A stretch of DNA of 64,000 nt, taken from NCBI GenBank assembly GCA_003978765.1, contig QNYO01000025.1:7303-71302 (forward strand), written 5' to 3'. The notes below the pieces were generated by a model. That model ran no database searches and was not told where the DNA came from. It was given only the letters and a program-made list of their open reading frames with translations. The position numbers and the translations under genes are program-made. This document shows positions 47,063 through 59,059 of the stretch, one piece after another. The stretch is from Hydrogenimonas sp. GTDB lineage: Bacteria > Campylobacterota > Campylobacteria > Campylobacterales > Hydrogenimonadaceae. Every line of letters starts with the position of its first letter. Position 1 is the stretch's first letter.

Positions 47063-48187
47063 ATGTTTGGTTTTTTAAAAAAGGGATTAAAAAAGACACT
47101 TGAAGTCATTCGTTCAACAGCACCCGTGAAACAGGAGAAGATCAGCAAAGATGAGCTTGAAGATCTCTTGCTTGAAGCTGATGTGAGTTATGAGCTTGTT
47201 GAAAAATTGATGGAGTCACTCCCAAGTAAAGTGAAACGTGTACAGCTCTATAATACACTCATTTCACTCTTTATGTACGATACACAATCCCCTCAAGCGG
47301 AGGGTCAAAAGCCCTTTGTCGATCTGATTGTCGGTGTCAATGGTGCCGGAAAAACAACCACGATTGCCAAACTGGCTCAACACTCTAAAAGTGAAGGAAA
47401 GAGTGTCATTTTAGGAGCGTCCGATACATTCCGTGCTGCAGCAATTGAGCAGTTAAAAACATGGGCTGAAAAGATTGATGTACCAATCGTCTATACCAAA
47501 CAGGGGCATGACCCATCGGCTGTTGCGTTTGATACCATTAGCTCTGCCAAAGCCAAAGGGATTGACCATGTCATTATCGATACAGCTGGACGACTCCATA
47601 CCCAAACCAACCTTGGTGAAGAGCTTAAAAAGATTGTCCGTGTCTGTGGCAAAGCACTCGAAGGGGCTCCGCATAGAAAAATCTTGATTCTTGATGGAAC
47701 GCAGGGCAATAGTGCCATTAACCAAGCCAAAGCCTTTAAAGAGATGATCGATATTAGTGGAGTGATCATTACCAAACTCGATGGTACTGCCAAAGGGGGA
47801 GCCCTCTTTAGTATTGCCGAAGAGTTAAAACTGCCTATCTACTATGTGGGTGTTGGTGAGAAGGCTGAAGATCTGATCCCATTTGATCCTAAAGAGTTTG
47901 TCAACACCATTCTTGATGCTATCTATACCGAAGAGAGTTCTGAAGATGTGGCAAAGGGTGATAATGTCGATCTTCATAACCTCACTGAGGCACAACAAAA
48001 GCGACTTGAAGAGCTTCTTAATAACGATGGATTTGATCTACTCTCGAAACACTTTGTCAGTGAAAGAGAGACCCAAGAGAGCTATCGTCTTAAGATTAAT
48101 GATGAGAGCGATGCTATCGAAGTTATCGATTCTGATGGCAATGTTCTAAAATCTTACAGTGCAGAAGTACTCGATAGCGATGGCTAA
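47063..48187 (+). CDS. ftsY: SRP receptor FtsY with a C-terminal extension
   Basis: GVNGAGKTTT, DTFRAAA, DTAGR, TKLDGTAKGG; about 85 extra acidic residues after the G domain. Confidence 0.94.
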   Translation: MFGFLKKGLKKTLEVIRSTAPVKQEKISKDELEDLLLEADVSYELVEKLMESLPSKVKRVQLYNTLISLFMYDTQSPQAEGQKPFVDLIVGVNGAGKTTTIAKLAQHSKSEGKSVILGASDTFRAAAIEQLKTWAEKIDVPIVYTKQGHDPSAVAFDTISSAKAKGIDHVIIDTAGRLHTQTNLGEELKKIVRVCGKALEGAPHRKILILDGTQGNSAINQAKAFKEMIDISGVIITKLDGTAKGGALFSIAEELKLPIYYVGVGEKAEDLIPFDPKEFVNTILDAIYTEESSEDVAKGDNVDLHNLTEAQQKRLEELLNNDGFDLLSKHFVSERETQESYRLKINDESDAIEVIDSDGNVLKSYSAEVLDSDG

Positions 48188-49529
48188 GAAAAAACAGTCT
48201 CTCTATGAGTGCCAAGCGTGTGGCATGCAAAGCGCCAAGTGGATGGGGAAATGCCCCAACTGTGGTGCTTGGGAGAGTTTTATCGAACTCTCTGCTGAAC
48301 AGCAAAAAGTTTTAAATGAGATCTCCAAAGCGACAACCTCCCCTTCCAAAGCCAAACCGATTACACAGATCGAAGAAGAAGAGGTTAGCCGATTTTCAAG
48401 TGGTGATAGTGAGCTTGATCTAGTCCTTGGGGGTGGTATCGTCCCTGGCTCACTCGTACTGATTGGTGGAAGTCCAGGGATTGGAAAATCGACCCTACTC
48501 CTTAAGATTGGAGGGAACCTTGCCCAAGAACAAAAAAGGGTGCTCTATGTCAGCGGTGAGGAGTCTGGTGGACAGATTAAGATGCGTGCCAACCGATTAG
48601 GCTCTAACCATGATAACCTCTATCTTCTTAGCGAAATACGCCTTGAAGCGGTAATGAATGAGGTAGCACGCGACCACTATGACCTTATCATTATCGACTC
48701 GATTCAAACCCTCTACTCTGAAGCAGTCCCGTCAGCACCCGGTAGCGTCACACAGGTTCGTACCATCACATTTGACCTGATGCGTCTTGCCAAAGAGAAG
48801 CAGATTCCTATCTTCATTATTGGTCATATTACCAAAGAGGGTTCGATTGCTGGTCCACGTGTCCTTGAACATATGGTCGATACTGTTCTCTACTTTGAGG
48901 GAGATGCAAGTAAAGAGATCCGTATGTTGCGTGCATTTAAAAACCGATTTGGGAGTACCAGTGAAGTGGGAATCTTTGAGATGACCCACGATGGACTTGT
49001 GAGTGCCAAAAATATCGCCAGTAAATTCTTTAGTCGAGGCAAACCACAAGCAGGTAGTGCTGTCACGGTTGTGATGGAGGGAACACGCCCCCTTGTCATA
49101 GAAGTGCAAGCACTTGTTGCTGATAGTGGCTATGGAAACCCCAAACGCTCCACCACAGGCTATGATGCCAGCCGTCTGACAATGCTCTTAGCCCTTTTAG
49201 AGAAAAAACTCGAACTGCCATTTAATCAGTATGATGTCTTTGTCAATATCGCAGGGGGAATTAAAATCAATGAACCTGCTGCTGACTTAGCCATTATCGC
49301 CGCAATTATCAGCAGTTTTAGAAACCGCCCTTTGAGTGATGAGAGTATCTTTATCGGTGAAGTGAGTCTTATTGGAGATATTCGAGAGGTTTTCCATCTT
49401 GAACAGCGTCTTCGTGAAGCACACACCCTTGGCTTTACCAAAGCAATCGTCCCCAATAAGCCCACCTTCCAAACCCCAATGAAGTGTTTTATTGCTGAAG
49501 AGGTTGCCAAAGTCGTCGAGTGGATGTAG
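48180..49529 (+). CDS. radA: DNA repair protein RadA/Sms
   Basis: CQAC..CPNC zinc finger, GSPGIGKST, KNRFG. Confidence 0.97.
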   Translation: MAKKKQSLYECQACGMQSAKWMGKCPNCGAWESFIELSAEQQKVLNEISKATTSPSKAKPITQIEEEEVSRFSSGDSELDLVLGGGIVPGSLVLIGGSPGIGKSTLLLKIGGNLAQEQKRVLYVSGEESGGQIKMRANRLGSNHDNLYLLSEIRLEAVMNEVARDHYDLIIIDSIQTLYSEAVPSAPGSVTQVRTITFDLMRLAKEKQIPIFIIGHITKEGSIAGPRVLEHMVDTVLYFEGDASKEIRMLRAFKNRFGSTSEVGIFEMTHDGLVSAKNIASKFFSRGKPQAGSAVTVVMEGTRPLVIEVQALVADSGYGNPKRSTTGYDASRLTMLLALLEKKLELPFNQYDVFVNIAGGIKINEPAADLAIIAAIISSFRNRPLSDESIFIGEVSLIGDIREVFHLEQRLREAHTLGFTKAIVPNKPTFQTPMKCFIAEEVAKVVEWM

Positions 49530-49548
49530 GCTTGGCGACTCACAAACT

Positions 49549-50616
49549 TCACCCTCTTCCCAATATCATATCAAAATTATCAACCTTTGTTGAACTCTTA
49601 TGAAGTCGTTCACATACATCACAATCCCAACACTCAAATTTACAATTTTTAATATAAGTATTCCATTTCTCAAACATCTTCTCTTCATAACCAAACTTTT
49701 TGACAATATCATATAATGGTTTAAAAACTACATCCTCACCATCTGCATAGCGTTTTACAATCTCCATTGACTGTTTCATAAGTCCAAAATCACTTCTTCC
49801 ATGAAGTTTAAAAATCTGAATATAGTTTAAGAGTTCCTCCATATCTTTTCGATATATTGGCATATTGGCATTTTGCAAGTGATACCATGGAATCTGTTGA
49901 TGCCATGCTGGACATGTTTTCATACCAAGTTCCGTTTTGAAATAGTTTATCGCCGTATCTTTAGAGTTTGAGTTATTATAATGGTAGTGTTCACTCATGG
50001 CAGGACATAACCCCTTACACCACTCATTAGCAAGAAGAATCATTGGGATATTGTATCTTTCATAAGCCTTCTTTAATCGTTTTAAGTTATCCAAATCTCT
50101 TAAATTATACCGATCAATATTGATTGCATCAAAACCAACTTTTGCATAATCAACATACTCTTGTGGTCTTGAAACTCTTTTTAAGACAGTATTTTTAATT
50201 GTCATCTCTGGAAACTCTTTTTTAAGAAGACCATTGAGCATCCAGCTATAATGAGGAATGGTAATCGATCGAAGTCCTCGTTTATAGAGTGGTTTCAACT
50301 TTTCTATAAATACATAGAGATTTTGAATTGTTGGTTCTACTAGTGTATTATTAAATGTAGCAGAAACTTTAATCCCATATTTTTCTTGAATCTGAAGCAT
50401 TACTGAAATAACTCGTCGATTCTGTGCTTCAACACCCTCTTTTGCAAGAACAGCAATATTAGCACAACCCATTGCATCATTCACAAAAGGAGGCATAATA
50501 TAGGCAAAATAGATATCATAAATATAGGAGTGATACTGCTTAATAAAAGGAAGAAACTCTTTATAAAAAAAAGTTTTATCCATCTGTGTAAAGAAAGGAA
50601 GTGAGAAAATTTTCAT
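49549..50616 (-). CDS. Cys-rich peptidase U32-like (putative Fe-S) protein, last gene of the cas operon
   Basis: LLANEWCKGLCP, TCP, FKLHGR and C-terminal CKFECWDCDVC; RBS AAGGA; 21 nt after the csm5 stop; low GC. Confidence 0.6.
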   Translation of the reverse strand: MKIFSLPFFTQMDKTFFYKEFLPFIKQYHSYIYDIYFAYIMPPFVNDAMGCANIAVLAKEGVEAQNRRVISVMLQIQEKYGIKVSATFNNTLVEPTIQNLYVFIEKLKPLYKRGLRSITIPHYSWMLNGLLKKEFPEMTIKNTVLKRVSRPQEYVDYAKVGFDAINIDRYNLRDLDNLKRLKKAYERYNIPMILLANEWCKGLCPAMSEHYHYNNSNSKDTAINYFKTELGMKTCPAWHQQIPWYHLQNANMPIYRKDMEELLNYIQIFKLHGRSDFGLMKQSMEIVKRYADGEDVVFKPLYDIVKKFGYEEKMFEKWNTYIKNCKFECWDCDVCERLHKSSTKVDNFDMILGRG

Positions 50617-50637
50617 AATAGTTCCTTAATATAAGCT

Positions 50638-51951
50638 TTATATATGCTTACTTTTAGCAAAAACTTCGTGATATTCATCCCTACCAATCCGCTCACAAAG
50701 GAGCCATCCAAAAGGGAGCATTTGGTTTTCACTCTCCTCTTTGTCAGAGAAGAACCAGCTGGTGGTCTCTTCGGTAAGGTAACACTTAATAGCAAGGCGT
50801 TTGATCGTTTTTGCTGTCTCTTCAAGCTCTGATGGTTTTTTCATGAAGTGATAGCTTTGAAGTTGTGTACGCAACTCTTTGGGATTTAGGAGCTTCTCAT
50901 CTGTCATCAAACGCTCAACAGTCTCATGATTCTCAAAGTAACTCTTCTTATAAAGCCGTTCAATTTTGGCTTCAATCTGCTCAAATGCACTATCACTTTT
51001 ATGTTTGAGATCGCAAAGTGTCACCATAATGGCACGCAGTCCCTCAATCGTCACAGAGCGTGCCCCACTATAGCGTCCGACACGAACAATAAAACGGTTC
51101 TTATCAAGCTTTAATGAAGCGATCTTCTGTTTAAATGTTTCACTCACATAGCGTGGTGTCATCTCCTGATGCGAAAAGAGTGAGGCTAAGATAGGAAGGT
51201 AGTGTTCATTGCAAGCATCGGCAATTGTCTCAAACTCTCGTAAAAGGCGTGGTTCAAAAGATTTTAACTCCAAACGTCCAACAAAGAGTGTCTCTGGCAT
51301 CATCGCTTCAACCCGTATCGAGGGTCCATGTCCCCCCTCTTCAAAACGCTCTTTGTTGAGTGCATAGCCAATCTTTGTATCCGATTGGATGGGGTGAAGA
51401 TCTGAAAGGAGAAGATTTTTCATAGGGCTAAGTGTAGGGTTACGCAACTCTTTAAAGTGTTGTCTCCATGCAGAAAAATCTTTTTGATACAACATACTCT
51501 GATAAGCGGTTGAGATCGCTCCTTTGAGACTACTACCTGAGATATAGGGCATCTTAAGATTCGTAAGCCGTTGGGTACGCATCATTTGAAACTGTTTAAA
51601 CCCCCTCTCTTTATGCTCTCGGTCATACGCTTTATAATCTCCAATTTTGGTTTCATACTCCTTGACAATCCCTTCGGAGACAGGAACAACATGGTGAGCA
51701 AGTGAGATAGCAATATCGTGGTGTGCCTGAATAAAAGCGTGAAGACGGATAAAGATGCCTGGGTCGGCTTGAGCAACTAAGTCGTTGAAGATATGGCGTT
51801 TTTGCTCATCAAGTTCACGGTAAAAGGCAAAAGGGTCAAACTCATAGAGGTGGTGGTTATGAATAATAAAGTTGGTTGGCTCATAATACTCACCTGTTCC
51901 AATATGGACAGGTGAAAGAAGCCTTACTTTTAGATAGTAGCTCTCTTTCAT
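50638..51951 (-). CDS. csm5: Type III-A CRISPR RAMP Csm5
   Basis: LSPVHIGTG, PYISGSSLKGAI, RVGRYSG, LPFGW. Confidence 0.92.
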   Translation of the reverse strand: MKESYYLKVRLLSPVHIGTGEYYEPTNFIIHNHHLYEFDPFAFYRELDEQKRHIFNDLVAQADPGIFIRLHAFIQAHHDIAISLAHHVVPVSEGIVKEYETKIGDYKAYDREHKERGFKQFQMMRTQRLTNLKMPYISGSSLKGAISTAYQSMLYQKDFSAWRQHFKELRNPTLSPMKNLLLSDLHPIQSDTKIGYALNKERFEEGGHGPSIRVEAMMPETLFVGRLELKSFEPRLLREFETIADACNEHYLPILASLFSHQEMTPRYVSETFKQKIASLKLDKNRFIVRVGRYSGARSVTIEGLRAIMVTLCDLKHKSDSAFEQIEAKIERLYKKSYFENHETVERLMTDEKLLNPKELRTQLQSYHFMKKPSELEETAKTIKRLAIKCYLTEETTSWFFSDKEESENQMLPFGWLLCERIGRDEYHEVFAKSKHI

Positions 51952-52835
51952 GCCTCAATACCCCCTATGGCTGTTACAATCGCATACCCTTGATGAACCG
52001 TATCGGGATAAGCAGGAGAGATGCCACGAACACCTCGTCCAATATAGGAGAGATTCATCACCTCATCCATTCTCACAACTGCTCCACACCCTGCCATCAA
52101 CAGTGGGTGTTTAAATGGGTTTTGATAGGCTCTTAATGCCCCATGCTTTCCAAAATGAACCGATAGCTCATACCAATATTGCTGACACTTTACCCCCTCT
52201 AAGACAGAGGCTGAAAGGGTCATAAAGTACTCCCCTGTTTGATGTAACTCTGCCCTTTGCAGAGGCTCCACACAAAATCGCCCTTTCCCAGTCGTGCTAT
52301 CTTTACCATAGCCATAGACTCCAACAAATGCCAAGACCTCTTCAAGTTCGTGCCGACTCAATCGTGACTCATCAACCAAAAAGTAGATCTCTTTGTCACT
52401 CAGTTGGTAGTTTGTTACGTTGTAAGAAGCAAACCGATCACCATCCATACGGAAGTTTCGATAGTCAAGATGATGATGAGCTTGAACAAAATTGCGGTCA
52501 CGATACCCCACCTCATCATCACTCTTTGCTTCATGATACGCACCTTTAACAAGGGCTTCTGGTTGCATCCAAACCTTTTTGGCATCTTCTCGTCTCTTTA
52601 AAGGGGAGAGTCCAAGCATGCGTGGTGGAAGGGTTGGTTTAGGTAAAAAACCTGGAGCAAAAGGGTCACTGACCACCATAAATGGCTCAGATTCATACCC
52701 CTCTAAAAGCTCTTTCAGACGCGCTTCACCATACTGAAAGAGAATCCCCCAACAGAGCTGTCCAAAGAGTGTGTCACCACGCAATGGTGTTGCAAAGGGG
52801 GATTCTGGAATGAGTCTGGTTTTATAGAGTTGCAT
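51948..52835 (-). CDS. csm4: Type III-A CRISPR RAMP Csm4
   Basis: GDTLFGQLCW, SDPF, GYGKDSTTGKGRF. Confidence 0.92.
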   Translation of the reverse strand: MQLYKTRLIPESPFATPLRGDTLFGQLCWGILFQYGEARLKELLEGYESEPFMVVSDPFAPGFLPKPTLPPRMLGLSPLKRREDAKKVWMQPEALVKGAYHEAKSDDEVGYRDRNFVQAHHHLDYRNFRMDGDRFASYNVTNYQLSDKEIYFLVDESRLSRHELEEVLAFVGVYGYGKDSTTGKGRFCVEPLQRAELHQTGEYFMTLSASVLEGVKCQQYWYELSVHFGKHGALRAYQNPFKHPLLMAGCGAVVRMDEVMNLSYIGRGVRGISPAYPDTVHQGYAIVTAIGGIEA

Positions 52836-52838
52836 ACC

Positions 52839-53519
52839 CTACTCACTCAAATGGAACTTAACACGTCCATAACCGCGTGAGCCATTCCCTCCAAGGTAAT
52901 CCTCTTCAACCAAATGCAATCCAAGCTTCACCATATTCAAAAGCTTATCTTCATCATCCAACCCATCAAAGACTTTAATACGAATATCAAGATTGAAAGA
53001 GACACCAGCAGGTACACGCTCAACTTGTCGGGGGTTTTGTGCTGTTCCCTTTTTACGATCAACCATATTCTCATACTTCGCTTCACTTAAGACCATATGC
53101 TTTGAGCTTTCACTGAGCAGACAATCCCCCACACTAATACGGGTCATACCATAGGGGCTATCTGGTGTTGGATCACCAAAAAGCTTCAAAAGTGTCTCTG
53201 CCTCTTCACGCTTTTTTGGATCGATCATAAAGATCTCTTCACGATTCAAGAATTTTCGAGAAAAGGGTTGCCCCTCTTCATAGGGATACTTTCGCCCCAT
53301 ACGCACCAACCCCAAATGCCACTCTAAGAGTGTACGCATCTTTCCTTTGAGTGAACTGCCTGGAATATAGGGCTCATAGATCCCCTTTTTATTCGGGTTA
53401 ACATGACGAATAACACTATTATCGATTCCACCTATCCGCATCGTGTCATCCCCCCGACCGATATGCAATCCTGTCAGCAGTTCGATCTCTCCTTTTACTT
53501 TTCTAATCTTTAGCATCAA
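52839..53519 (-). CDS. csm3: Type III-A CRISPR backbone RNase Csm3
   Basis: TGLHIG, IGGIDNSVIR (catalytic Asp), PYIPGSSLKGK.R, PRQVERVPAG, YLGGNGSRGYG. Confidence 0.95.
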   Translation of the reverse strand: MMLKIRKVKGEIELLTGLHIGRGDDTMRIGGIDNSVIRHVNPNKKGIYEPYIPGSSLKGKMRTLLEWHLGLVRMGRKYPYEEGQPFSRKFLNREEIFMIDPKKREEAETLLKLFGDPTPDSPYGMTRISVGDCLLSESSKHMVLSEAKYENMVDRKKGTAQNPRQVERVPAGVSFNLDIRIKVFDGLDDEDKLLNMVKLGLHLVEEDYLGGNGSRGYGRVKFHLSE

Positions 53520-53905
53520 TCTCTCCCTTTATAAAATCCAAGAACCGCTTCAAAAAAGAGTTTAAAAATTTTGAGTTTCTCAGGAGAATCAACCTGTGCA
53601 ATACACTGTGCCATCATCTCAGCGAAACGGCAATTGAGCACTTCACGTGTTACCCCATAGGCCACTTTAGAGTTCAACATCTTTACAAATGGTTCAATCT
53701 CATCCCACGGTTGTGTCTCACGTGCATCATAATATTTTAAGATTTGGTCATAAAAACTGCGTACCTGTGCCTTCTTTGTTCTCTTATAACGCTCTCTTCC
53801 ATACTCATCTTGGCACTTATCCCCTTCAATCAAAGAAGCCCAATATTTGGCTGTTTCATTAAAGAGTTCAGGATCGACTCTATAGTCAAGAATAATCTTC
53901 TCCAT
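53516..53905 (-). CDS. csm2: Type III-A small subunit Csm2
   Basis: QVR.FY, KVAY, FFEAVLGFY; located between cas10 and csm3. Confidence 0.9.
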   Translation of the reverse strand: MEKIILDYRVDPELFNETAKYWASLIEGDKCQDEYGRERYKRTKKAQVRSFYDQILKYYDARETQPWDEIEPFVKMLNSKVAYGVTREVLNCRFAEMMAQCIAQVDSPEKLKIFKLFFEAVLGFYKGRD

Positions 53906-53909
53906 CCAC

Positions 53910-55511
53910 CTATCTCCTTTGGTAAATAAACTCACTCAAAATCATTTTACACGCTTCAGGTGACGCTTCAATCCACTGATTCAACATATTTAAAAGCTCT
54001 TGTGCCCAAATATTCTGTTCCTCATCACTCTCTTGAAGATATTCAAAGATATTACGCTGAAAGAGATAGTTAAGGCGTGAACGCCACATTGCCCCTTCAA
54101 GAAGATGATCAGGATCTTTCATACTTTGACGCAATACAACAATATTAAAGAGTTGTTCAATGAAATGCATCGATAACCCTGTTAAACGCTTCTGTGCAGT
54201 ATCAAGGGCTTGATAGAGTGCTTTGGCTTCACGATAGGTTTTCCATGCCACTGTTTCACCAAAAAGGGTGATGGCAGATTTGCCTTGAAAGGCTTTCGAG
54301 GCTTCAAGTGCAGCGTTACACGACTGAACAAGATACTCCATAGGTGTGGAAGGGTTGGCAATCACAATCCCCATAGAGAGTGAGAGTCTATCGTATGTAA
54401 AGCGTCTAAACGCCTCTTCAATCTGCTGTGCCAAATCTATAATCTGATCCCACGCTCCTATGAGAAAAAAGTGACCAGCCTCTGCGAAGAGTATCGAGGT
54501 ATTAGGATAGCTTTGGTACATGAGGTGTGATAGATCCTGCTTGAAAAACTGGTCAAGTGATGCCATAAAGCTATGGAGATGTTCAAAAGAGGCTTTTAAA
54601 TGGTTCTGCTCTAAAAAGATCTCCAGATTATCAATATCTCCCTTTAAGAGTCCCAACGCTTTAAGCCCATGATCATTGGTTGGAGAACTCCGCTCTGCCA
54701 GATCGTTCAATGATGCGATCTCTTCTCTCTCATTAGTCGTACAATAAGTGATCTGCGAGAGATCCATCAACGCAATGGCATCTGAACGATCATCAAAGGC
54801 GATACCATAGCCATCAAAAAAGTCTATCTCTCCATCATTACGTACCAGTGCTACACTCTTGTTTTCTACCAGTGACTCACCAAGCTTCATCCACTGTTGA
54901 CATAGATCACAGATAGCCTCTCTCTTCCCTTGACGAAGGTTACAGATTGGACAAAGATTCTGATGATCGATATCTTCATCATACGCTAAGAGTGCCTGTT
55001 GGTTGGGAAGATCAAACTTTTGATACCATGCCTGCTCTATACGTCCTCTCATCTCTTCTTGAAATTCTCGATAAGCTACTCGATCCTGCCAGATAGCTGA
55101 CGTACAACTCATCCAGACAAGACTCAATCCACCCAAACCATAGAAGTGATTCAAACAGAAGCTATTGAAACTTTGACGAAGCTCCTCTAAAGTTTGGTAA
55201 TCGATTGTAGGAGAGAGAATCTCAAATCCTCTACTCGAACATGAGAGAATAGCATCTGGTGAGAGACCAAGCTGATCACAGATGCGATAGGCTGATAGGT
55301 GCATAAAGAGCTCGATATAGACTGACTTTGCCTGTAATATCTGATGGGCATGTTGGGTTGAGACTCCTCTAAAAAGAAAGCTCTCCAGACCAAAAAAGTG
55401 ACCAGAGATGAGTAGATAATCGTCTGAATCATCACATGGGGGTACCTTCTTTTGAAAGATCGGTATGAAGTCACCAAATGTTGTAGAAAATGTCTCTTCA
55501 AACCGACTCAT
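53910..55511 (-). CDS. cas10: Cas10/Csm1, HD-less with degenerate Palm active site
   Basis: Palm1 LISGHFFG, zinc finger CPIC..CDLC, KGDIDNL, FAEAGHFFLIGAW in place of FAGGDDLFLIGAW; only 533 aa. Confidence 0.88.
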   Translation of the reverse strand: MSRFEETFSTTFGDFIPIFQKKVPPCDDSDDYLLISGHFFGLESFLFRGVSTQHAHQILQAKSVYIELFMHLSAYRICDQLGLSPDAILSCSSRGFEILSPTIDYQTLEELRQSFNSFCLNHFYGLGGLSLVWMSCTSAIWQDRVAYREFQEEMRGRIEQAWYQKFDLPNQQALLAYDEDIDHQNLCPICNLRQGKREAICDLCQQWMKLGESLVENKSVALVRNDGEIDFFDGYGIAFDDRSDAIALMDLSQITYCTTNEREEIASLNDLAERSSPTNDHGLKALGLLKGDIDNLEIFLEQNHLKASFEHLHSFMASLDQFFKQDLSHLMYQSYPNTSILFAEAGHFFLIGAWDQIIDLAQQIEEAFRRFTYDRLSLSMGIVIANPSTPMEYLVQSCNAALEASKAFQGKSAITLFGETVAWKTYREAKALYQALDTAQKRLTGLSMHFIEQLFNIVVLRQSMKDPDHLLEGAMWRSRLNYLFQRNIFEYLQESDEEQNIWAQELLNMLNQWIEASPEACKMILSEFIYQRR

Positions 55512-56350
55512 TGATACTCCTTAAGCGGTGTCAGCCTATAATCTCCCAGTCCAAAAACTGTCTGCTTGCCTGCCCCAATCACTTCACCTATCTTCAAATA
55601 ACCGTATGATCGCTCATCCAAACCCCGAATCACCACACTTCCTATCACCCCTCCTAATTTCATACGACACTTCTGCCGATTGGAGTAGCGATAGAGATCA
55701 AGATAGTGAAGATCACTCTTCTCTATCTCACCTTCAATGCGGTATCCAAGCTTTTGTGAAGGCAACCCTTTAAGGGCACGATAGCGATGGTGAATCGTCG
55801 TAATAAGTGTTGGTAGTGAAGGGGTATGATAGATGAGATGATTATTCATCTTCATACGGAGTGGCATACGAAACTCCAACCGTACATCACGATAACACTC
55901 CTCGACAGAAGTCGAGCATGGTTGCACCCGATCTATTGGAAGAAATCTCTCTCCATCATAGACAAGATGTACTCCAACATGAATATTGGCTACCTTCACC
56001 TTTTGTTGATCTTTTCCCAATCCCGTCTCTTCAAGTGACTTTTTCATCGCTGAGAGAATATAGGGCATCTGTGCAACCCGATCTTCAAAGAGATAGATAG
56101 AAAAAGCCAGATGCTTCATACCCAGTGCCGAGACAATACGATAAGGGTGGTAGAGGTTCACTTTTTCAAAAAAGTCGTAATAGAGACATGTTGCAGTGGC
56201 AAAACATCCACTGCATTGATATGAGGGGTTGATACAGACCATCCGTTTCAATGTCACGCCCAATGCCCCACGCAACATCGAACCTGAAAAGAAGGGTGGT
56301 TGATACGCTGTAACTGCCTCAATATCTATTTTTATCCATGTAATTTTCAT
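55508..56350 (-). CDS. cas6: CRISPR pre-crRNA endoribonuclease Cas6
   Basis: GSMLRGALG, Cys cluster CINP...C..C.....C.Y, RYSNRQ, G-rich loop GAGKQTVFGLG. Confidence 0.92.
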   Translation of the reverse strand: MKITWIKIDIEAVTAYQPPFFSGSMLRGALGVTLKRMVCINPSYQCSGCFATATCLYYDFFEKVNLYHPYRIVSALGMKHLAFSIYLFEDRVAQMPYILSAMKKSLEETGLGKDQQKVKVANIHVGVHLVYDGERFLPIDRVQPCSTSVEECYRDVRLEFRMPLRMKMNNHLIYHTPSLPTLITTIHHRYRALKGLPSQKLGYRIEGEIEKSDLHYLDLYRYSNRQKCRMKLGGVIGSVVIRGLDERSYGYLKIGEVIGAGKQTVFGLGDYRLTPLKEYQ

Positions 56351-56719: not shown

Positions 56720-59059
56720 TTAAATAATTGCATCTTGTGTTAACATTTCACACAACTGCTTAACCTCCTTTTTATTGAGAATACTCTCAATATTGGATGT
56801 TGCTCTCAATGTTTTCATCACAGTTAGATCCTCTTCAACCGAGATGACAATGACGGGCGTTTTAATCCCCTCATCCTCCATATATTGTAAAACCTCTGCA
56901 CAGATCCCATCGCTCAAATAGAAATCCAAAATCACCAAATCAAAGCTTTCAACTGTTAACAACTTCTTAGCACCATTATTGGAGTCGGTAAAAGTGAGTC
57001 GAAACTTATCTTGCAGATACTCTTCAAAAATTTCACGAGAGTTTTGGCTATCTTCCACAATCAAAATATGTTTTGCCGTTTCGGGTGCTTTAAAGAGTGA
57101 GTAGGAGTTGGATGGTGGATCAATGGTAGGGATTGTCAGATGGAAGCAACTCCCCTTTCCTGCTTCACTCTCCACCCAGATACGACCTCGATGAAGCTCT
57201 TCAACAATCTTTTTACAGATCATCAACCCAAGTCCACTGCCTGCTTCACTCTTTTGGTAAACATTTTCGATCTGAACAAATGGCTGAAAGAGTTTAAGCT
57301 GATCCTCTTTAGAGATTCCGATTCCTGTATCACAGATAGAGAAGTGGTAAGAGTTGCTATCCTCTTCATAATAGACATGTAAAGAGACCTCACCACCTTT
57401 GGGGGTAAATTTAATGGCATTACTCATTAAGTTAAGCAAAACTTGCTTTAAAAGCATGGGATCAACCACCATGGTCATCGATTGATCAACCTTTAAGTTG
57501 AGTTGGATATCCTTTTGATTTGCTAATGGACGTGTAAGCGTTTCAACCTCTTTAATAATTGTCTTGACATCACTCAAAGTTGGATTAAAACGCATTTTAC
57601 CCGCTTCAAGTTTCGCAAAATCCAAAATAGTATTGACAAGATTGAGAAGATTGTTGCCCGCAATATTGATCTTCTCAATATAGGCCTTAATATGCTCAGG
57701 CGTATCTGGACGCATCATAAGGATTTGGGAAAATCCATTGATAGCATTGAGAGGTGTTCGCAACTCATGGGACATATTGGCCAAAAAGACATCTTTGGCG
57801 CGATTGGCACTCTCTGCTTTATCGGCAAACTCCATCAATGACTGTTCACGCTCTTTAATAGAGAAATTCAGTTCAAGTGCTTCAAGGAGTAGAATCAAAA
57901 TCTCTTCAAGATAGAGTTTATTGACCAAAGGTTTGAGTTGAATGCCCAAATAGAAGCTATACTGTTTGTATTGAATATGTTTGGTAATATCAAAAGTGTT
58001 ACCATCCAATGGCTCTGTTTGCACAACAATCTCTTCAATCGCCCATGGCATCACCGACTTAAGACTCTCTTTAACACGTGCCATCACATTTTTCTGAATA
58101 TCATACTCTGAAATTAAGATCAAATCGCGTTGAGAAAAGATTGTATGGATTGCACGGATCGCTTTCAATCCTGCATGTAACGAAAGAAAACCGCTGGTCG
58201 AAAACTCTTTAAGGGGACGATCCATCAACTCATAGAGTTGATTGGTTACTCGCGTCAATGCATCAAAATGGTCACGTATTTTCTGTTTATTCCCCTCTTC
58301 AACCATACGTTTAAAGGCTGTAAGTTCGTGATGCCATGCCATATGGAGTGATTTAAGCTCTTCAATATCGATACCTAATGTTTTAAGACGCTCTAATTGA
58401 TCACTCAAACGCTCTAATAGTTGGTGAAACTTACACTCGAATGGATCTTCAATTATTGTACTGAGTTGTTGGGTTGTATGATCGGGATGCTTCATATAGG
58501 CTTCAATCAAAGAGTAGTTCTCTTTATGAATGGCAAAAGCACTATAGACCTCATCAATAATCTCGATAGATGAGAGTTGACGCATACGATCCGATGATTG
58601 GTAGTAGGCATGGTAGGTACTATCAATAATGATATACTCCACCATTGCAAAAAATTTGCTAATCATCTCATAGTGGTGTTTAATCACTGGATCAACCAGT
58701 GACATTTTATAAAGAAGACGATTCAGTGCCCAAAAGCCATAGGTCACTTTACCACTCTCCAGTCGTATGCCAGCATGAATTGCACCAACCTTTTGTATCC
58801 GGCTCAAATAGGCTTGATCAATAGGCGCTGAAAAGATAAAGATGATAAACTCTTGCATCGTTTTTAGCAGACGATCGATATCGGTATGTCGAAAATAGCG
58901 TACCATCTGCTCATCATCTTTGAGATACTCATGATAGAACTTCTCAATCAAAATTGAGCTCATAACTGAAAGCTTATCATGAAGTGCCTCTCGTGCCTCA
59001 ATATCCTCTGCGGTAATATGGAACTGTCGAAGTAGATTCTCAATCGTCAACTGGTGCAT
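56720..59059 (-). CDS. Globin-coupled hybrid histidine kinase (protoglobin-CZB-HisKA-HATPase-REC)
   Basis: Globin FY..., VG.IH proximal His; CZB-like H, ECKF, H..WH; ANMSHELRTPLN, DTGIG, GSGLGL; C-terminal REC. Confidence 0.88.
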   Translation of the reverse strand: MHQLTIENLLRQFHITAEDIEAREALHDKLSVMSSILIEKFYHEYLKDDEQMVRYFRHTDIDRLLKTMQEFIIFIFSAPIDQAYLSRIQKVGAIHAGIRLESGKVTYGFWALNRLLYKMSLVDPVIKHHYEMISKFFAMVEYIIIDSTYHAYYQSSDRMRQLSSIEIIDEVYSAFAIHKENYSLIEAYMKHPDHTTQQLSTIIEDPFECKFHQLLERLSDQLERLKTLGIDIEELKSLHMAWHHELTAFKRMVEEGNKQKIRDHFDALTRVTNQLYELMDRPLKEFSTSGFLSLHAGLKAIRAIHTIFSQRDLILISEYDIQKNVMARVKESLKSVMPWAIEEIVVQTEPLDGNTFDITKHIQYKQYSFYLGIQLKPLVNKLYLEEILILLLEALELNFSIKEREQSLMEFADKAESANRAKDVFLANMSHELRTPLNAINGFSQILMMRPDTPEHIKAYIEKINIAGNNLLNLVNTILDFAKLEAGKMRFNPTLSDVKTIIKEVETLTRPLANQKDIQLNLKVDQSMTMVVDPMLLKQVLLNLMSNAIKFTPKGGEVSLHVYYEEDSNSYHFSICDTGIGISKEDQLKLFQPFVQIENVYQKSEAGSGLGLMICKKIVEELHRGRIWVESEAGKGSCFHLTIPTIDPPSNSYSLFKAPETAKHILIVEDSQNSREIFEEYLQDKFRLTFTDSNNGAKKLLTVESFDLVILDFYLSDGICAEVLQYMEDEGIKTPVIVISVEEDLTVMKTLRATSNIESILNKKEVKQLCEMLTQDAII

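What the first reader, a model, noticed from the sequence alone, without database searches (positions are those of the whole stretch)
49549..50616. Low-GC U32-like Fe-S protein in the effector slot of the cas operon
The gene starts 21 nt after csm5 on the same strand with a good RBS, where csm6/csx1 usually sits. It has no recognisable CARF, SAVED or HEPN motif. It does have U32-like features (NEWC...CP, CP, KLHGR) and a CxxxCxxCxxC tail typical of Fe-S binding. Hand counts of two 60-nt lines give 30% GC versus 45% for a csm4 line, so it may have been acquired separately. Characterised U32 proteins (RlhA, TrhP, UbiU/UbiV) are Fe-S hydroxylases, two of which act on RNA. Speculatively, it could be an RNA-modifying or redox-sensing partner recruited by the Csm complex without a second messenger.
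Basis: partly seen in the sequence, partly recalled or inferred. Interest (0 to 1): 0.72.

Follow-up and report, generated by a model that had tools for sequence, protein, structure and literature searches.

The report
Stray Fe-S enzyme gene behind csm5
The gene after csm5 is a real, well-conserved iron-sulfur enzyme of the U32 fold that was acquired from elsewhere and sits at the end of a stripped-down type III CRISPR operon, but its relatives are never found next to CRISPR genes, so the link to CRISPR is probably an accident of position.

Summary
A 355-aa ORF (49549-50616, minus strand) starts 21 nt after csm5 behind an AAGGA ribosome-binding site. Its AlphaFold model (pLDDT 92) matches the U32 protein Mk0906 best (Z 16.4, next 12.4). 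Distant relatives pass Pfam PF01136. Seven Cys are invariant.

The CRISPR link is weak. None of 101 homologue loci holds a Csm/Cas6/Cas10 gene (tblastn and profile HMMs, with positive controls). The sister clade sits between an RTX adhesin gene and a type I secretion exporter. Other relatives sit with radical-SAM/SPASM partners or among cyanophage fibre genes, and many are fused to a methyltransferase.

Same-genus relatives carry Csx1 or CARF-RelE in this slot. Here Cas10 has no HD domain and no GGDD (EAGH instead), and the locus has no CARF gene, cas1/cas2 or array. A second strain appears to carry the same locus. There Cas10 is 67% identical, the other Cas proteins 90-94% and this gene 97.5%.

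Best reading (about 0.68): a horizontally acquired enzyme riding on a reduced type III-A operon. A recruited effector is not excluded (about 0.1).

The parts
49549..50616 (-). Gene X: a 355-aa divergent U32-fold TIM-barrel protein with 7 invariant Cys
   Evidence: ORF. AF2 pLDDT 92.3. 5d88 is the top match by Foldseek (E 2.1e-6) and by VIA (Z 16.4, rmsd 3.2, 225 aligned; next Z 12.4). It matches phrog_1458 at E 1.9e-79. It keeps all 47 columns that are invariant in 39 family members.
50002..50028 (-). Codons for N197-E-W-C200-K-G-L-C204-P205, the first Cys pair
   Evidence: Invariant columns in alignment A1. The pair aligns with the NEGCxxDCP of relatives that pass PF01136.
49612..49644 (-). 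Codons for C325-x3-C329-x2-C332-x2-C335, the C-terminal four-Cys cluster
   Evidence: All four Cys are invariant in 40 sequences. This part lies outside the stretch matched by 5d88 (model range 1-284).
50617..50637 (-). The 21-nt spacer between csm5 and X, with RBS AAGGA at 50623-50627
   Evidence: Sequence read directly. No terminator-like site on the minus strand and no promoter-like site in or beside this spacer; such sites in the region are no commoner than in shuffles.
49530..49548 (.). The 19-nt gap between the convergent stops of radA and X. A related strain's contig diverges from the window after 49538
   Evidence: table 7 (loose end in run X4 at 49538). Synteny with same-genus genomes ends at radA.
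50638..51951 (-). csm5 (437 aa)
   Evidence: TIGR01899, 46.3 bits against a cut-off of 38.3. PADLOC Csm5, E 1.2e-20.
51948..52835 (-). csm4
   Evidence: TIGR01903, 83.1 bits.
52839..53519 (-). csm3, with the Asp of the IGGIDN stretch kept
   Evidence: TIGR02582, 177 bits. Alignment. That this Asp is the catalytic residue is recalled, not from a call.
53516..53935 (-). csm2
   Evidence: TIGR01870, 47.7 bits.
53910..55511 (-). cas10 (533 aa), lacking the HD domain and the GGDD motif
   Evidence: TIGR02578, 268 bits, matching only model positions 218-753. Alignments. It is the lone outlier at 23 columns that are otherwise invariant, against 0-15 for the other sequences.
54471..54482 (-). Codons for E344-A-G-H347 at the place of the Palm2 GGDD motif
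   Evidence: At this position 29 of the 31 closest Cas10 sequences have GGDD. The two exceptions are the window and its 67%-identical sister P0270 (GDRA).
55508..56350 (-). cas6
   Evidence: PF10040, 46.9 bits. PADLOC Cas6, E 5.7e-50.

Best explanation
Gene X encodes a working enzyme of the U32 superfamily: a TIM barrel that probably holds one or two iron-sulfur (or zinc) centres on its seven invariant cysteines. By analogy with the studied U32 proteins (UbiU/UbiV, TrhP, RlhA), which are linked to oxygen-independent, prephenate-dependent hydroxylation, it most likely hydroxylates its substrate. In many relatives a fused SAM methyltransferase could then methylate that hydroxyl. In its native settings the family sits beside large secreted or structural proteins (RTX adhesins with their type I exporter, cyanophage fibre genes) or beside radical-SAM/SPASM maturases. 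The substrate is therefore more likely a protein or peptide than the Csm complex or its RNA. The window's copy is a single-gene horizontal acquisition from a lower-GC Campylobacterota donor. It landed exactly at the 3' end of a reduced type III-A operon, at the edge of a variable island next to radA, and is probably transcribed by read-through from the csm genes. The position is the effector slot, but the link to CRISPR is positional, not functional. Shown: the fold, the family tie, the Cys conservation, the foreign composition, the contexts of homologues, and the loss of HD and GGDD in Cas10. Inferred: Fe-S binding, hydroxylase chemistry, a protein substrate, co-transcription, and the lack of coupling to Csm.
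For: Fold and family: AF2 pLDDT 92.3. 5d88 (U32 Mk0906) is first by Foldseek and by VIA (Z 16.4 against 12.4 for the next entry). Of 44 distant or long relatives scanned, 3 pass PF01136 at 37.7-39.3 bits against a cut-off of 22.4. hhalign of the X family against those relatives gives 99.8%, E 2.6e-28, over the full length. The nearest atlas clusters are 'Peptidase U32' or carry PF01136 in 20% of members.

Functional gene: X keeps all 47 invariant columns with no lone deviation, and it is 97.5% identical in a second strain.

Foreign origin: GC 32.2% against 41.4% for the genome, in the 2% tail. X was not found in 60 relatives, including 0 of 21 genomes of the same genus. In the tree it is sister (99/96) to L001/L002/L042 inside a Campylobacterota clade, whose loci have 29-42% GC. 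Similarity to the sister loci starts at the start codon and fades out within the last codons of the ORF, before the stop.

No CRISPR link elsewhere: tblastn with the six window Cas proteins found nothing in 21 genome loci or in 80 metagenome loci. Profile HMMs of the six proteins gave 0 hits in 4281 ORF segments of these 101 loci, while each model found 6 or 7 of 7 held-out type III loci. Pfam found no Cas family in 110 and 19 neighbouring ORFs.

Native contexts among the 101 loci (L001 and L043 are one contig): 8 with RTX or type I secretion genes, 12 with the 300-aa partner or radical SAM, and 66 with phage-type neighbours. The sister clade has the order RTX adhesin, X, OEP, C39-ABC, HlyD. 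There are 126 phage records, mostly cyanomyoviruses, where the gene lies next to fibre genes. Methyltransf_24 fusions appear. The own genome has an RTX-type gene at the end of contig C50.

U32 chemistry comes from passages read in PMC6747719, PMC10990095 and PMC6599085.
Against: X occupies the very place where same-genus relatives carry Csx1 or CARF-RelE. It has only 21 nt and an RBS between it and csm5, with no terminator-like site. The Cas10 beside it has lost both known outputs, so the complex has no known effector at all. A second strain appears to keep X together with the same cas genes, and there X is the best conserved of the five locus proteins compared. The usual partners of X (the 300-aa protein, radical SAM, an exporter next door) were not found in this 80%-complete genome, so what X acts on here is open. 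Two of the characterised U32 enzymes act on RNA. X itself does not reach PF01136, and a single canonical U32 of the own genome does not align with the family profile. No substrate, cofactor or transcript was observed.
Confidence: 0.68

Rival explanations
1. X is a recruited, messenger-independent effector or partner of a Csm complex whose Cas10 has lost both nuclease and cyclase. It is made from the same transcript, docks on the complex (on Cas10 or Csm5), and acts on bound target RNA or triggers a response when the target is bound.
For: X sits in the effector slot, with a tight 21-nt junction and an RBS. Cas10 lacks HD and GGDD, and no CARF gene was found in the genome with the relatives' Csx1 or CARF-RelE as queries. 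Cas6, Csm2-5 and the Csm3 Asp stay conserved while Cas10 alone drifts, so a crRNA-guided complex may still be under selection. The genome has arrays with a Cas6-type repeat. X seems to be kept with the locus in a second strain. U32 enzymes RlhA and TrhP act on RNA.
Against: None of 101 homologue loci has a cas neighbour, with working controls. The two strains are close, so they count as one event. The sister clade is in RTX/T1SS operons. X has no added domain compared with relatives that have no CRISPR link. Loss of cOA synthesis together with loss of CARF genes is described as ordinary reductive evolution (PMC12669027, passages). Nine other HD-less Cas10 loci in the order have no X.
Confidence: 0.1
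2. X is a nucleic-acid base hydroxylase, like RlhA or TrhP, acting on tRNA, rRNA or phage DNA independently of CRISPR. The fused methyltransferase of the phage forms would make a methoxy base.
For: Two of the three studied U32 pathways hydroxylate RNA. In B. subtilis the U32 genes trhP1/trhP2 share an operon with the O-methyltransferase TrmR/YrrM (PMC6599085, passages). One source names a fused relative 'predicted O-methyltransferase YrrM'. A dCTP-deaminase-like gene lies next to X in L008 and about 4 kb away in phage RP31. The family is common in phages.
Against: The recurrent neighbours are RTX adhesins with exporters, fibre genes and SPASM-type maturases, not nucleotide-metabolism genes. 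The 'YrrM' label is one source's automatic name. The methyltransferase part has no match to solved structures by sequence.
Confidence: 0.17
3. X is a decaying remnant of a transferred gene cluster and has no function here.
For: Its usual partner genes were not found in this genome. Its end branch is longer than those of its sisters (0.26 against 0.06-0.13).
Against: The ORF is intact, keeps all 47 invariant residues and has no lone deviation. It is 97.5% identical between two strains whose Cas proteins differ by 6-33%.
Confidence: 0.04

Closest known systems
Peptidase U32 family (PF01136): UbiU/UbiV, TrhP, RlhA; solved structure Mk0906 (5d88)
   Same: Same TIM-barrel fold (Z 16.4). A conserved Cys pair follows an NE motif. 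Distant family members pass PF01136. Fe-S binding and hydroxylase chemistry are expected by analogy.
   Different: X itself is below PF01136 detection. The Cys spacing is CX3CX30C plus a C-terminal CX3CX2CX2C, not the published CX6CX15CX3/4C. The family is phage-rich and often fused to a methyltransferase. No member has been studied.
Type III CRISPR ancillary effectors (Csm6/Csx1 CARF-HEPN, CARF-RelE)
   Same: Same place in the operon, directly after csm5 on the same strand.
   Different: X has no CARF, SAVED or HEPN domain. The Cas10 here cannot be expected to make a messenger. There is no recurrent linkage to type III loci.
Reduced type III systems with inactivated Cas10 cyclase (subtypes III-C, III-G, III-H)
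   Same: The Palm2 catalytic motif is replaced, and the cOA-sensing accessory genes are lost with it, as those subtypes are described (PMC12669027, passages).
   Different: By sequence this locus is a plain III-A (Csm1-5 equivalogs) nested among HD-less but GGDD-positive relatives. It also lacks HD, so no known output is left. Only two close strains are seen.
PHROG 1458 / 36869 (cyanomyovirus 'T4-GC 354', for example PSSM4_035)
   Same: Direct homologues: E 1.9e-79 and 1.3e-54, and 36-40% identity over 95-98% of X in 126 phage records.
   Different: The phage forms mostly carry a C-terminal methyltransferase and lie among fibre genes. All are annotated as hypothetical.
Substrate-modifying genes inside RTX/type I secretion operons (such as the acyltransferase HlyC of hlyCABD; recalled, not from a call)
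   Same: In the sister clade X lies between the RTX gene and the exporter genes, the kind of place where an enzyme that modifies the secreted protein is encoded.
   Different: The fold and the expected chemistry are unrelated. In the window no exporter or RTX gene is adjacent.

Membership tests
Peptidase U32 superfamily | Match to Pfam PF01136 above its gathering score | tested here: not met
   X has no Pfam hit at E <= 0.01. Of 44 relatives scanned, 3 (P0253, P0265, P0268) score 37.7-39.3 bits against a cut-off of 22.4, and these align with the X family at 99.8% by hhalign. Membership therefore rests on a transitive link.
Peptidase U32 superfamily | TIM-barrel fold like the solved U32 protein Mk0906 | tested here: met
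   5d88 is first by Foldseek (E 2.1e-6, TM 0.70 by target) and by VIA-align (Z 16.4, rmsd 3.2, 225 residues; next Z 12.4).
Peptidase U32 superfamily | Four conserved Cys in a CX6CX15CX3/4C-type motif that binds a [4Fe-4S] cluster (PMC6747719) | tested here: inconclusive
   Seven Cys are invariant, but with other spacing: C200-x3-C204-x30-C235 and C325-x3-C329-x2-C332-x2-C335.
Peptidase U32 superfamily | Prephenate-dependent, O2-independent hydroxylase activity | not testable with these tools
   Needs biochemistry. Passages read.
Type III CRISPR ancillary effector | Messenger-sensing domain (CARF, SAVED or similar) | tested here: not met
   No PADLOC, Pfam or NCBIfam hit. The whole protein up to about residue 345 is accounted for by the U32-like barrel and the Cys tail.
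Type III CRISPR ancillary effector | Recurrent genomic linkage of the family to type III loci | tested here: not met
   None of 21 genome loci and none of 80 metagenome loci has a cas gene. The 80 are the best of 543 relatives found. The Cas HMMs were built from Campylobacterales III-A proteins, so very distant type III genes could be missed.
Type III CRISPR ancillary effector | A partner Cas10 able to signal (GGDD-type Palm2) | tested here: not met
   EAGH stands at the motif position. 29 of the 31 closest Cas10 sequences have GGDD there.
Type III-A (Csm) effector module | cas10/csm1, csm2, csm3, csm4, csm5 and cas6 in one operon | tested here: met
   All six pass NCBIfam or PADLOC models.
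Type III-A (Csm) effector module | HD nuclease domain in Cas10 | tested here: not met
   The match to TIGR02578 starts at model position 218, and Pfam finds no HD. HD is present in the 755-798 aa Cas10 of same-genus genomes. Nine other loci in the order also lack HD.

The most novel reading that the evidence does not exclude
In one vent-dwelling Campylobacterales lineage, a type III-A complex whose Cas10 has lost both its nuclease and its cyclase has captured a phage/T1SS-type U32-like Fe-S enzyme as its only accessory gene. The enzyme would be made with the complex and work on or through the RNA-guided complex, for example by hydroxylating bound target RNA or by acting as an effector that needs no messenger. 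That would be a new output for type III CRISPR.
Probability: 0.1. Interest if true: 0.85.

Novelty: new variant of a known kind. Interest (0 to 1): 0.42.

Why it matters
If the ordinary reading is right, the finding still matters in two ways. First, it marks an unstudied, strongly conserved branch of the U32 Fe-S enzymes. This branch is near-universal in some cyanomyovirus groups. In bacteria it is wedged between RTX adhesin genes and their exporters, which points to an unknown, possibly oxygen-independent modification of secreted or virion proteins. Second, it shows a type III-A locus caught in reductive evolution. Cas10 has no HD and no GGDD and diverges four to five times faster than its neighbours, yet it stays open. 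That is useful for asking what a Cas10 scaffold alone is good for. If the bold reading is right, it would be the first redox or RNA-modifying enzyme used as a type III output.

Tried and rejected
- Sequence searches of X and of its family profile against PDB chains gave nothing meaningful (best E 0.42 and 0.011).
- hhalign of the family against a single canonical U32 of the own genome gave nothing (probability 1.1%).
- Complex prediction (Cas10 alignment A4 with X alignment A1) could never be queued. The queue was reported full, and the hand-ins in between were not sent on. No result exists.
- No listed run holding this stretch is on record as RNA. Two runs labelled metatranscriptomic are flagged 'probably DNA', and all four laid runs are contigs, so nothing can be said on expression.
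- No contig of the other-study run X3 bridges the junctions.
- Around the gene there is no tRNA, no flanking direct repeat and no CRISPR repeat. There is no tandem repeat in the window.
- A viral-contig scan with X alone gave only two 38-39% relatives.
- Literature: 'peptidase U32' with 'type III CRISPR' gave 1 irrelevant paper. 'cyanophage' with 'U32' gave 3 irrelevant papers. The preprint on CRISPR-linked genes has no mention of U32, TIM barrel, iron-sulfur, radical SAM or peptidase in its main text. The supplements of these papers were not seen and may list more families.
- A chimeric assembly was considered and judged unlikely.
- I rejected the idea that the HD loss is a recent deletion unique to this locus: HD-less Cas10 of about 500-550 aa is common among the closest relatives.
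Full report
**1. What is there**

The ORF at 49549-50616 lies on the minus strand and encodes 355 aa. The stop codon of the gene upstream is at 50638-50640 and the ATG of the ORF is at 50614-50616. That leaves 21 nt, with AAGGA 6 nt before the ATG. On the same strand upstream lie six cas genes:
- csm5 (50638-51951)
- csm4 (51948-52835)
- csm3 (52839-53519)
- csm2 (53516-53935)
- cas10 (53910-55511)
- cas6 (55508-56350)

All six pass NCBIfam or PADLOC models for type III-A. Downstream the ORF meets radA (48159-49529, plus strand) head-on, with 19 nt between the two stops. The consensus scan found no terminator-like site on the minus strand and no promoter-like site in or beside the csm5-X junction. 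The number of promoter-like sites in the region matches what shuffles give.

The ORF, here called X, has 32.2% GC (GC3 25.8%). The six cas genes have 39-46% and the 1.61-Mb genome 41.4%. Only 2.05% of 2883 genome windows of the same size are as low (profile).

**2. What X is**

X has no hit in Pfam, NCBIfam or PADLOC at E <= 0.01, and no meaningful sequence match to PDB chains. It does have many homologues:
- 273 proteins at E <= 1e-3 in the word-indexed search, many about 540 aa long and carrying PF13578, a methyltransferase domain;
- 224 cluster representatives at E <= 0.001 in the exhaustive search, 54 of them at E <= 1e-30.

A 40-sequence alignment has 49% mean column identity. The invariant residues include N197, E198, C200, G202, C204, P205, E209, H210, C235, W238, K270, G273, R274 and C325, C329, C332, C335.

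The AlphaFold2 model made on this alignment has mean pLDDT 92.3 and pTM 0.90. Against solved structures, the U32 protein Mk0906 (5d88) is first by Foldseek (E 2.1e-6). It is also first in the Foldseek-independent search (Z 16.4, rmsd 3.2 over 225 residues), and the next entry, an unrelated TIM barrel, has Z 12.4.

I scanned 44 distant or long relatives against Pfam. Three pass PF01136 (Peptidase_U32) at 37.7-39.3 bits against a cut-off of 22.4. An alignment of these with two other sequences matches the X family profile at 99.8% probability (E 2.6e-28) over the full length, including the Cys pair and the C-terminal Cys cluster. The protein atlas agrees as a lead: its nearest clusters are named 'Peptidase U32' or carry PF01136 in 20% of members, and they are mostly viral.

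So X belongs to a divergent branch of the U32 superfamily. Its Cys pattern is CX3CX30C plus CX3CX2CX2C. This is not the CX6CX15CX3/4C published for most U32 families (PMC6747719, passages). I had no model coordinates, so I could not tell which Cys lie together. Fe-S binding is an inference.

X is not decaying. It keeps all 47 columns that are invariant in 39 family members and is never the lone deviant.

**3. Where the family lives**

X matches phrog_1458 (E 1.9e-79) and phrog_36869 (E 1.3e-54), both of unknown function. tblastn found it in 126 phage records. Of these, 123 are Synechococcus or Prochlorococcus myoviruses or are named 'Cyanophage', and 3 are Ralstonia jumbo phages. Every match covers at least 80% of X. 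In P-SSM4 it is PSSM4_035 ('T4-GC 354'), a hypothetical protein in a run of genes after a fibre gene.

I collected 21 loci from species genomes and the best 80 of 543 relatives in metagenome contigs. L001 and L043 are the same contig. I then looked for cas genes in them three ways:
- tblastn with the window's six Cas proteins found none in the 21 loci and none in the 80.
- Profile HMMs built from ten Campylobacterales sequences of each Cas protein gave 0 hits in 4281 ORF segments (1.18 Mb) of the 101 loci. The same models found 6 or 7 of 7 held-out type III loci.
- Pfam scans showed no Cas family. I scanned 110 of the 140 neighbouring ORFs listed, leaving out L010, L011 and L013 (which repeat L009), one short ORF, and five ORFs over 1000 aa. 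I scanned 19 further ORFs as well.

Instead, three other contexts recur among the 101 loci:
- RTX adhesin or type I secretion genes in 8;
- a conserved partner of about 300 aa and/or radical-SAM/SPASM enzymes in 12;
- phage-type neighbours (phrog_1409, 1604, 1417) in 66.

In L003 the partner is fused to X. The atlas likens the partner to SPASM or 'CXXX repeat peptide maturase' clusters, which is a lead only.

A maximum-likelihood tree of 29 rows puts the window's X as sister (99/96) to L001, L002 and L042, inside a Campylobacterota clade. In those three loci the order is RTX adhesin, X, outer-membrane factor, C39-type ABC exporter, HlyD. L046 has three tandem paralogues next to a 2490-aa RTX protein, SapC and an exporter.

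**4. How X came to be here**

X was not found in 60 relatives, including 0 of 21 genomes of the same genus; 49 of the 60 are at least 90% complete. The closest homologues lie in loci of 29-42% GC. DNA similarity to the sister loci begins at the start codon and fades out within the last codons of the ORF, before the stop. The flanks are unrelated.

Gene order upstream of radA is shared with same-genus genomes, in which radA is 90-95% identical by protein. Downstream of radA the order is not shared. In one public run a related strain's contig (16 differences in 636 nt over radA) departs from the window 9 nt after the radA stop.

The adjacency in the window is supported by contigs of the probable source run that bridge both junctions, and by a short contig of a second run of the same study that bridges the radA junction. 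These are not independent of the window. A run from another study holds pieces of X (about 99% identical) and of csm5 (97.6%), but no bridging contig.

The usual partners of X were not found in this 80%-complete genome. An RTX-type ORF runs off the end of contig C50.

**5. The CRISPR locus beside it**

In same-genus genomes the homologous operon continues after csm5 in one of three ways:
- Csx1 (CARF-HEPN), RmuC, cas2, cas1 and an array (G003);
- CARF-RelE, cas2, cas1 (G006);
- cas2, cas1 and an array (G002).

Other genomes of the order have Csx1 directly after csm5 (G069, G122, G070) or no gene in that slot (G240, G357, G259). So the place X occupies really is the effector slot.

The window's locus lacks a CARF gene, cas1, cas2 and an array. 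The genome has arrays on other contigs: at least 28 copies of a 29-nt repeat ending ATTTGAAAC on C36/C90, beside a cas1, and a 36-nt repeat on C92.

The window's Cas10 has 533 aa and no HD domain. That alone is common here. In 400 other genomes of the order, 41 have a Cas10 match at E <= 1e-20, and several of those ORFs have about 500-530 aa. Nine such loci that I read keep GGDD.

What is special is the Palm2 motif. EAGH replaces GGDD, GHFFGLE replaces GDFxGIQ, and an Arg of the AAKVLRAKS stretch is lost. Among the 31 closest Cas10 sequences in the large protein collection, 29 have GGDD at this position. The two exceptions are the window's protein and P0270 (GDRA). The window's Cas10 is the lone deviant at 23 columns that are otherwise invariant, against 0-15 for the other sequences. 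For Cas6, Csm2, Csm3, Csm4 and Csm5 the figures are 2, 3, 5, 6 and 1, which are ordinary. The Asp of the IGGIDN stretch of Csm3 is kept; that this is the catalytic residue is recalled.

**6. A second strain**

Cluster look-ups show a second set of proteins, all seen on a contig whose length is given as 23,651 nt:

| Protein | Id | Identity to the window's protein |
|---|---|---|
| Cas6 | P0424 | 90.4% |
| Cas10 | P0270 | 67.0%, spread evenly along its length |
| Csm4 | P0422 | 92.2% |
| Csm5 | P0420 | 94.3% |
| X | P0001 | 97.5% |

 I could not read that contig. That the five genes lie together, and in the same order, is inferred from the shared contig length.

If so, the locus with X exists in at least two close strains. 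Cas10 there diverges four to five times faster than its neighbours yet stays open, and X is the best conserved of the five proteins compared. This fits a Cas10 freed of catalytic constraint but kept as a scaffold. It also shows that X is under purifying selection. It does not show that X works with the complex, because the two strains are one evolutionary event.

**7. Reading**

The best-supported account is that X is a functional U32-type enzyme acquired as a single gene from a lower-GC Campylobacterota donor. There its kin serve RTX/type I secretion or SPASM-type maturation systems. X now sits at the 3' end of a reduced type III-A operon, from which it is probably transcribed.

The studied U32 proteins are linked to oxygen-independent, prephenate-dependent hydroxylation. 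Direct activity has not been shown in vitro (PMC10990095, passages; PMC6599085, passages). The frequent fusion of X relatives to a SAM methyltransferase fits hydroxylation followed by O-methylation. That is my inference.

[quoted passage not shown] A survey of type III loci sought new effectors only where Cas10 keeps a cyclase domain (PMC11229360, passages). A locus like this one would fall outside that search.

The bold alternative, that X has become the output of a Cas10-dead complex, is not excluded. The points for it are the position, the tight junction, the absence of any other effector, and the retention in two strains. The 101 homologue loci without a cas gene, and the sister clade's secretion context, speak against it. 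I put it at about 0.1.

**8. Limits**

- No RNA data exist for this stretch.
- The complex prediction could not be queued.
- The Cas HMMs come from one order.
- The 80 metagenome loci are the best-scoring of 543 and are dominated by the phage-type branch.
- Supplements of the papers were not seen.
- The substrate, the cofactor and the chemistry of X are inferred.

Noticed in passing
window 53910-55511 (-): Cas10 lacks the HD domain and has EAGH in place of GGDD. In a second strain the same protein is only 67% identical (GDRA at the motif), while Cas6, Csm4 and Csm5 are 90-94% identical. Cas10 seems to drift fast while staying an open frame.
   Followed up: yes
own genome contigs C36:36-720, C90:1988-3101, C92:46-350 (outside the window): CRISPR arrays lie away from the type III operon. 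There are at least 28 copies of a 29-nt repeat ending ATTTGAAAC, split over two contig ends with a cas1 homologue on C90, and 5 copies of a 36-nt repeat on C92. The Csm complex may draw its crRNAs from the first array.
   Followed up: partly
L122 (Prochlorococcus phage P-SSM4, 34591-36156 of the record) and 125 other phage records: The X family is widespread in cyanomyoviruses as a hypothetical protein ('T4-GC 354'), usually fused to a methyltransferase and lying after fibre genes. It also occurs in Ralstonia jumbo phages.
   Followed up: partly
L046:8355-12703: Three tandem paralogues of X lie together; two have an extra N-terminal part of about 185 aa. They sit between a 2490-aa RTX protein and SapC, a TPR-glycosyltransferase-like protein and a type I exporter.
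   Followed up: no
L138-L144, L130 (genomes G240, G357, G230, G069, G390, G122, G259, G145): HD-less Cas10 of about 500-520 aa, directly after cas6, is a common form of type III-A in this order. All of these keep GGDD. Some have Csx1 after csm5 and others have no effector gene in the slot.
   Followed up: partly
window 56720-59059 (-): Directly upstream of cas6 lies a 779-aa hybrid sensor kinase with an N-terminal protoglobin domain (Protoglobin, HisKA, HATPase_c, receiver). More two-component genes follow. None of these is shared with the same-genus genomes next to radA.
   Followed up: no
window 49538 (run X4): A more abundant related strain in a public run has radA (about 97.5% identical) followed by different sequence from 9 nt after its stop. 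The whole block from X onwards is strain-variable.
   Followed up: partly
own genome contig C50:10171-12744 (+): An RTX-repeat ORF of at least 858 aa runs off the contig end. It is 34-49% identical, in repeats, to the adhesin that precedes X in the sister locus L042. It is a possible client of X in this genome.
   Followed up: partly
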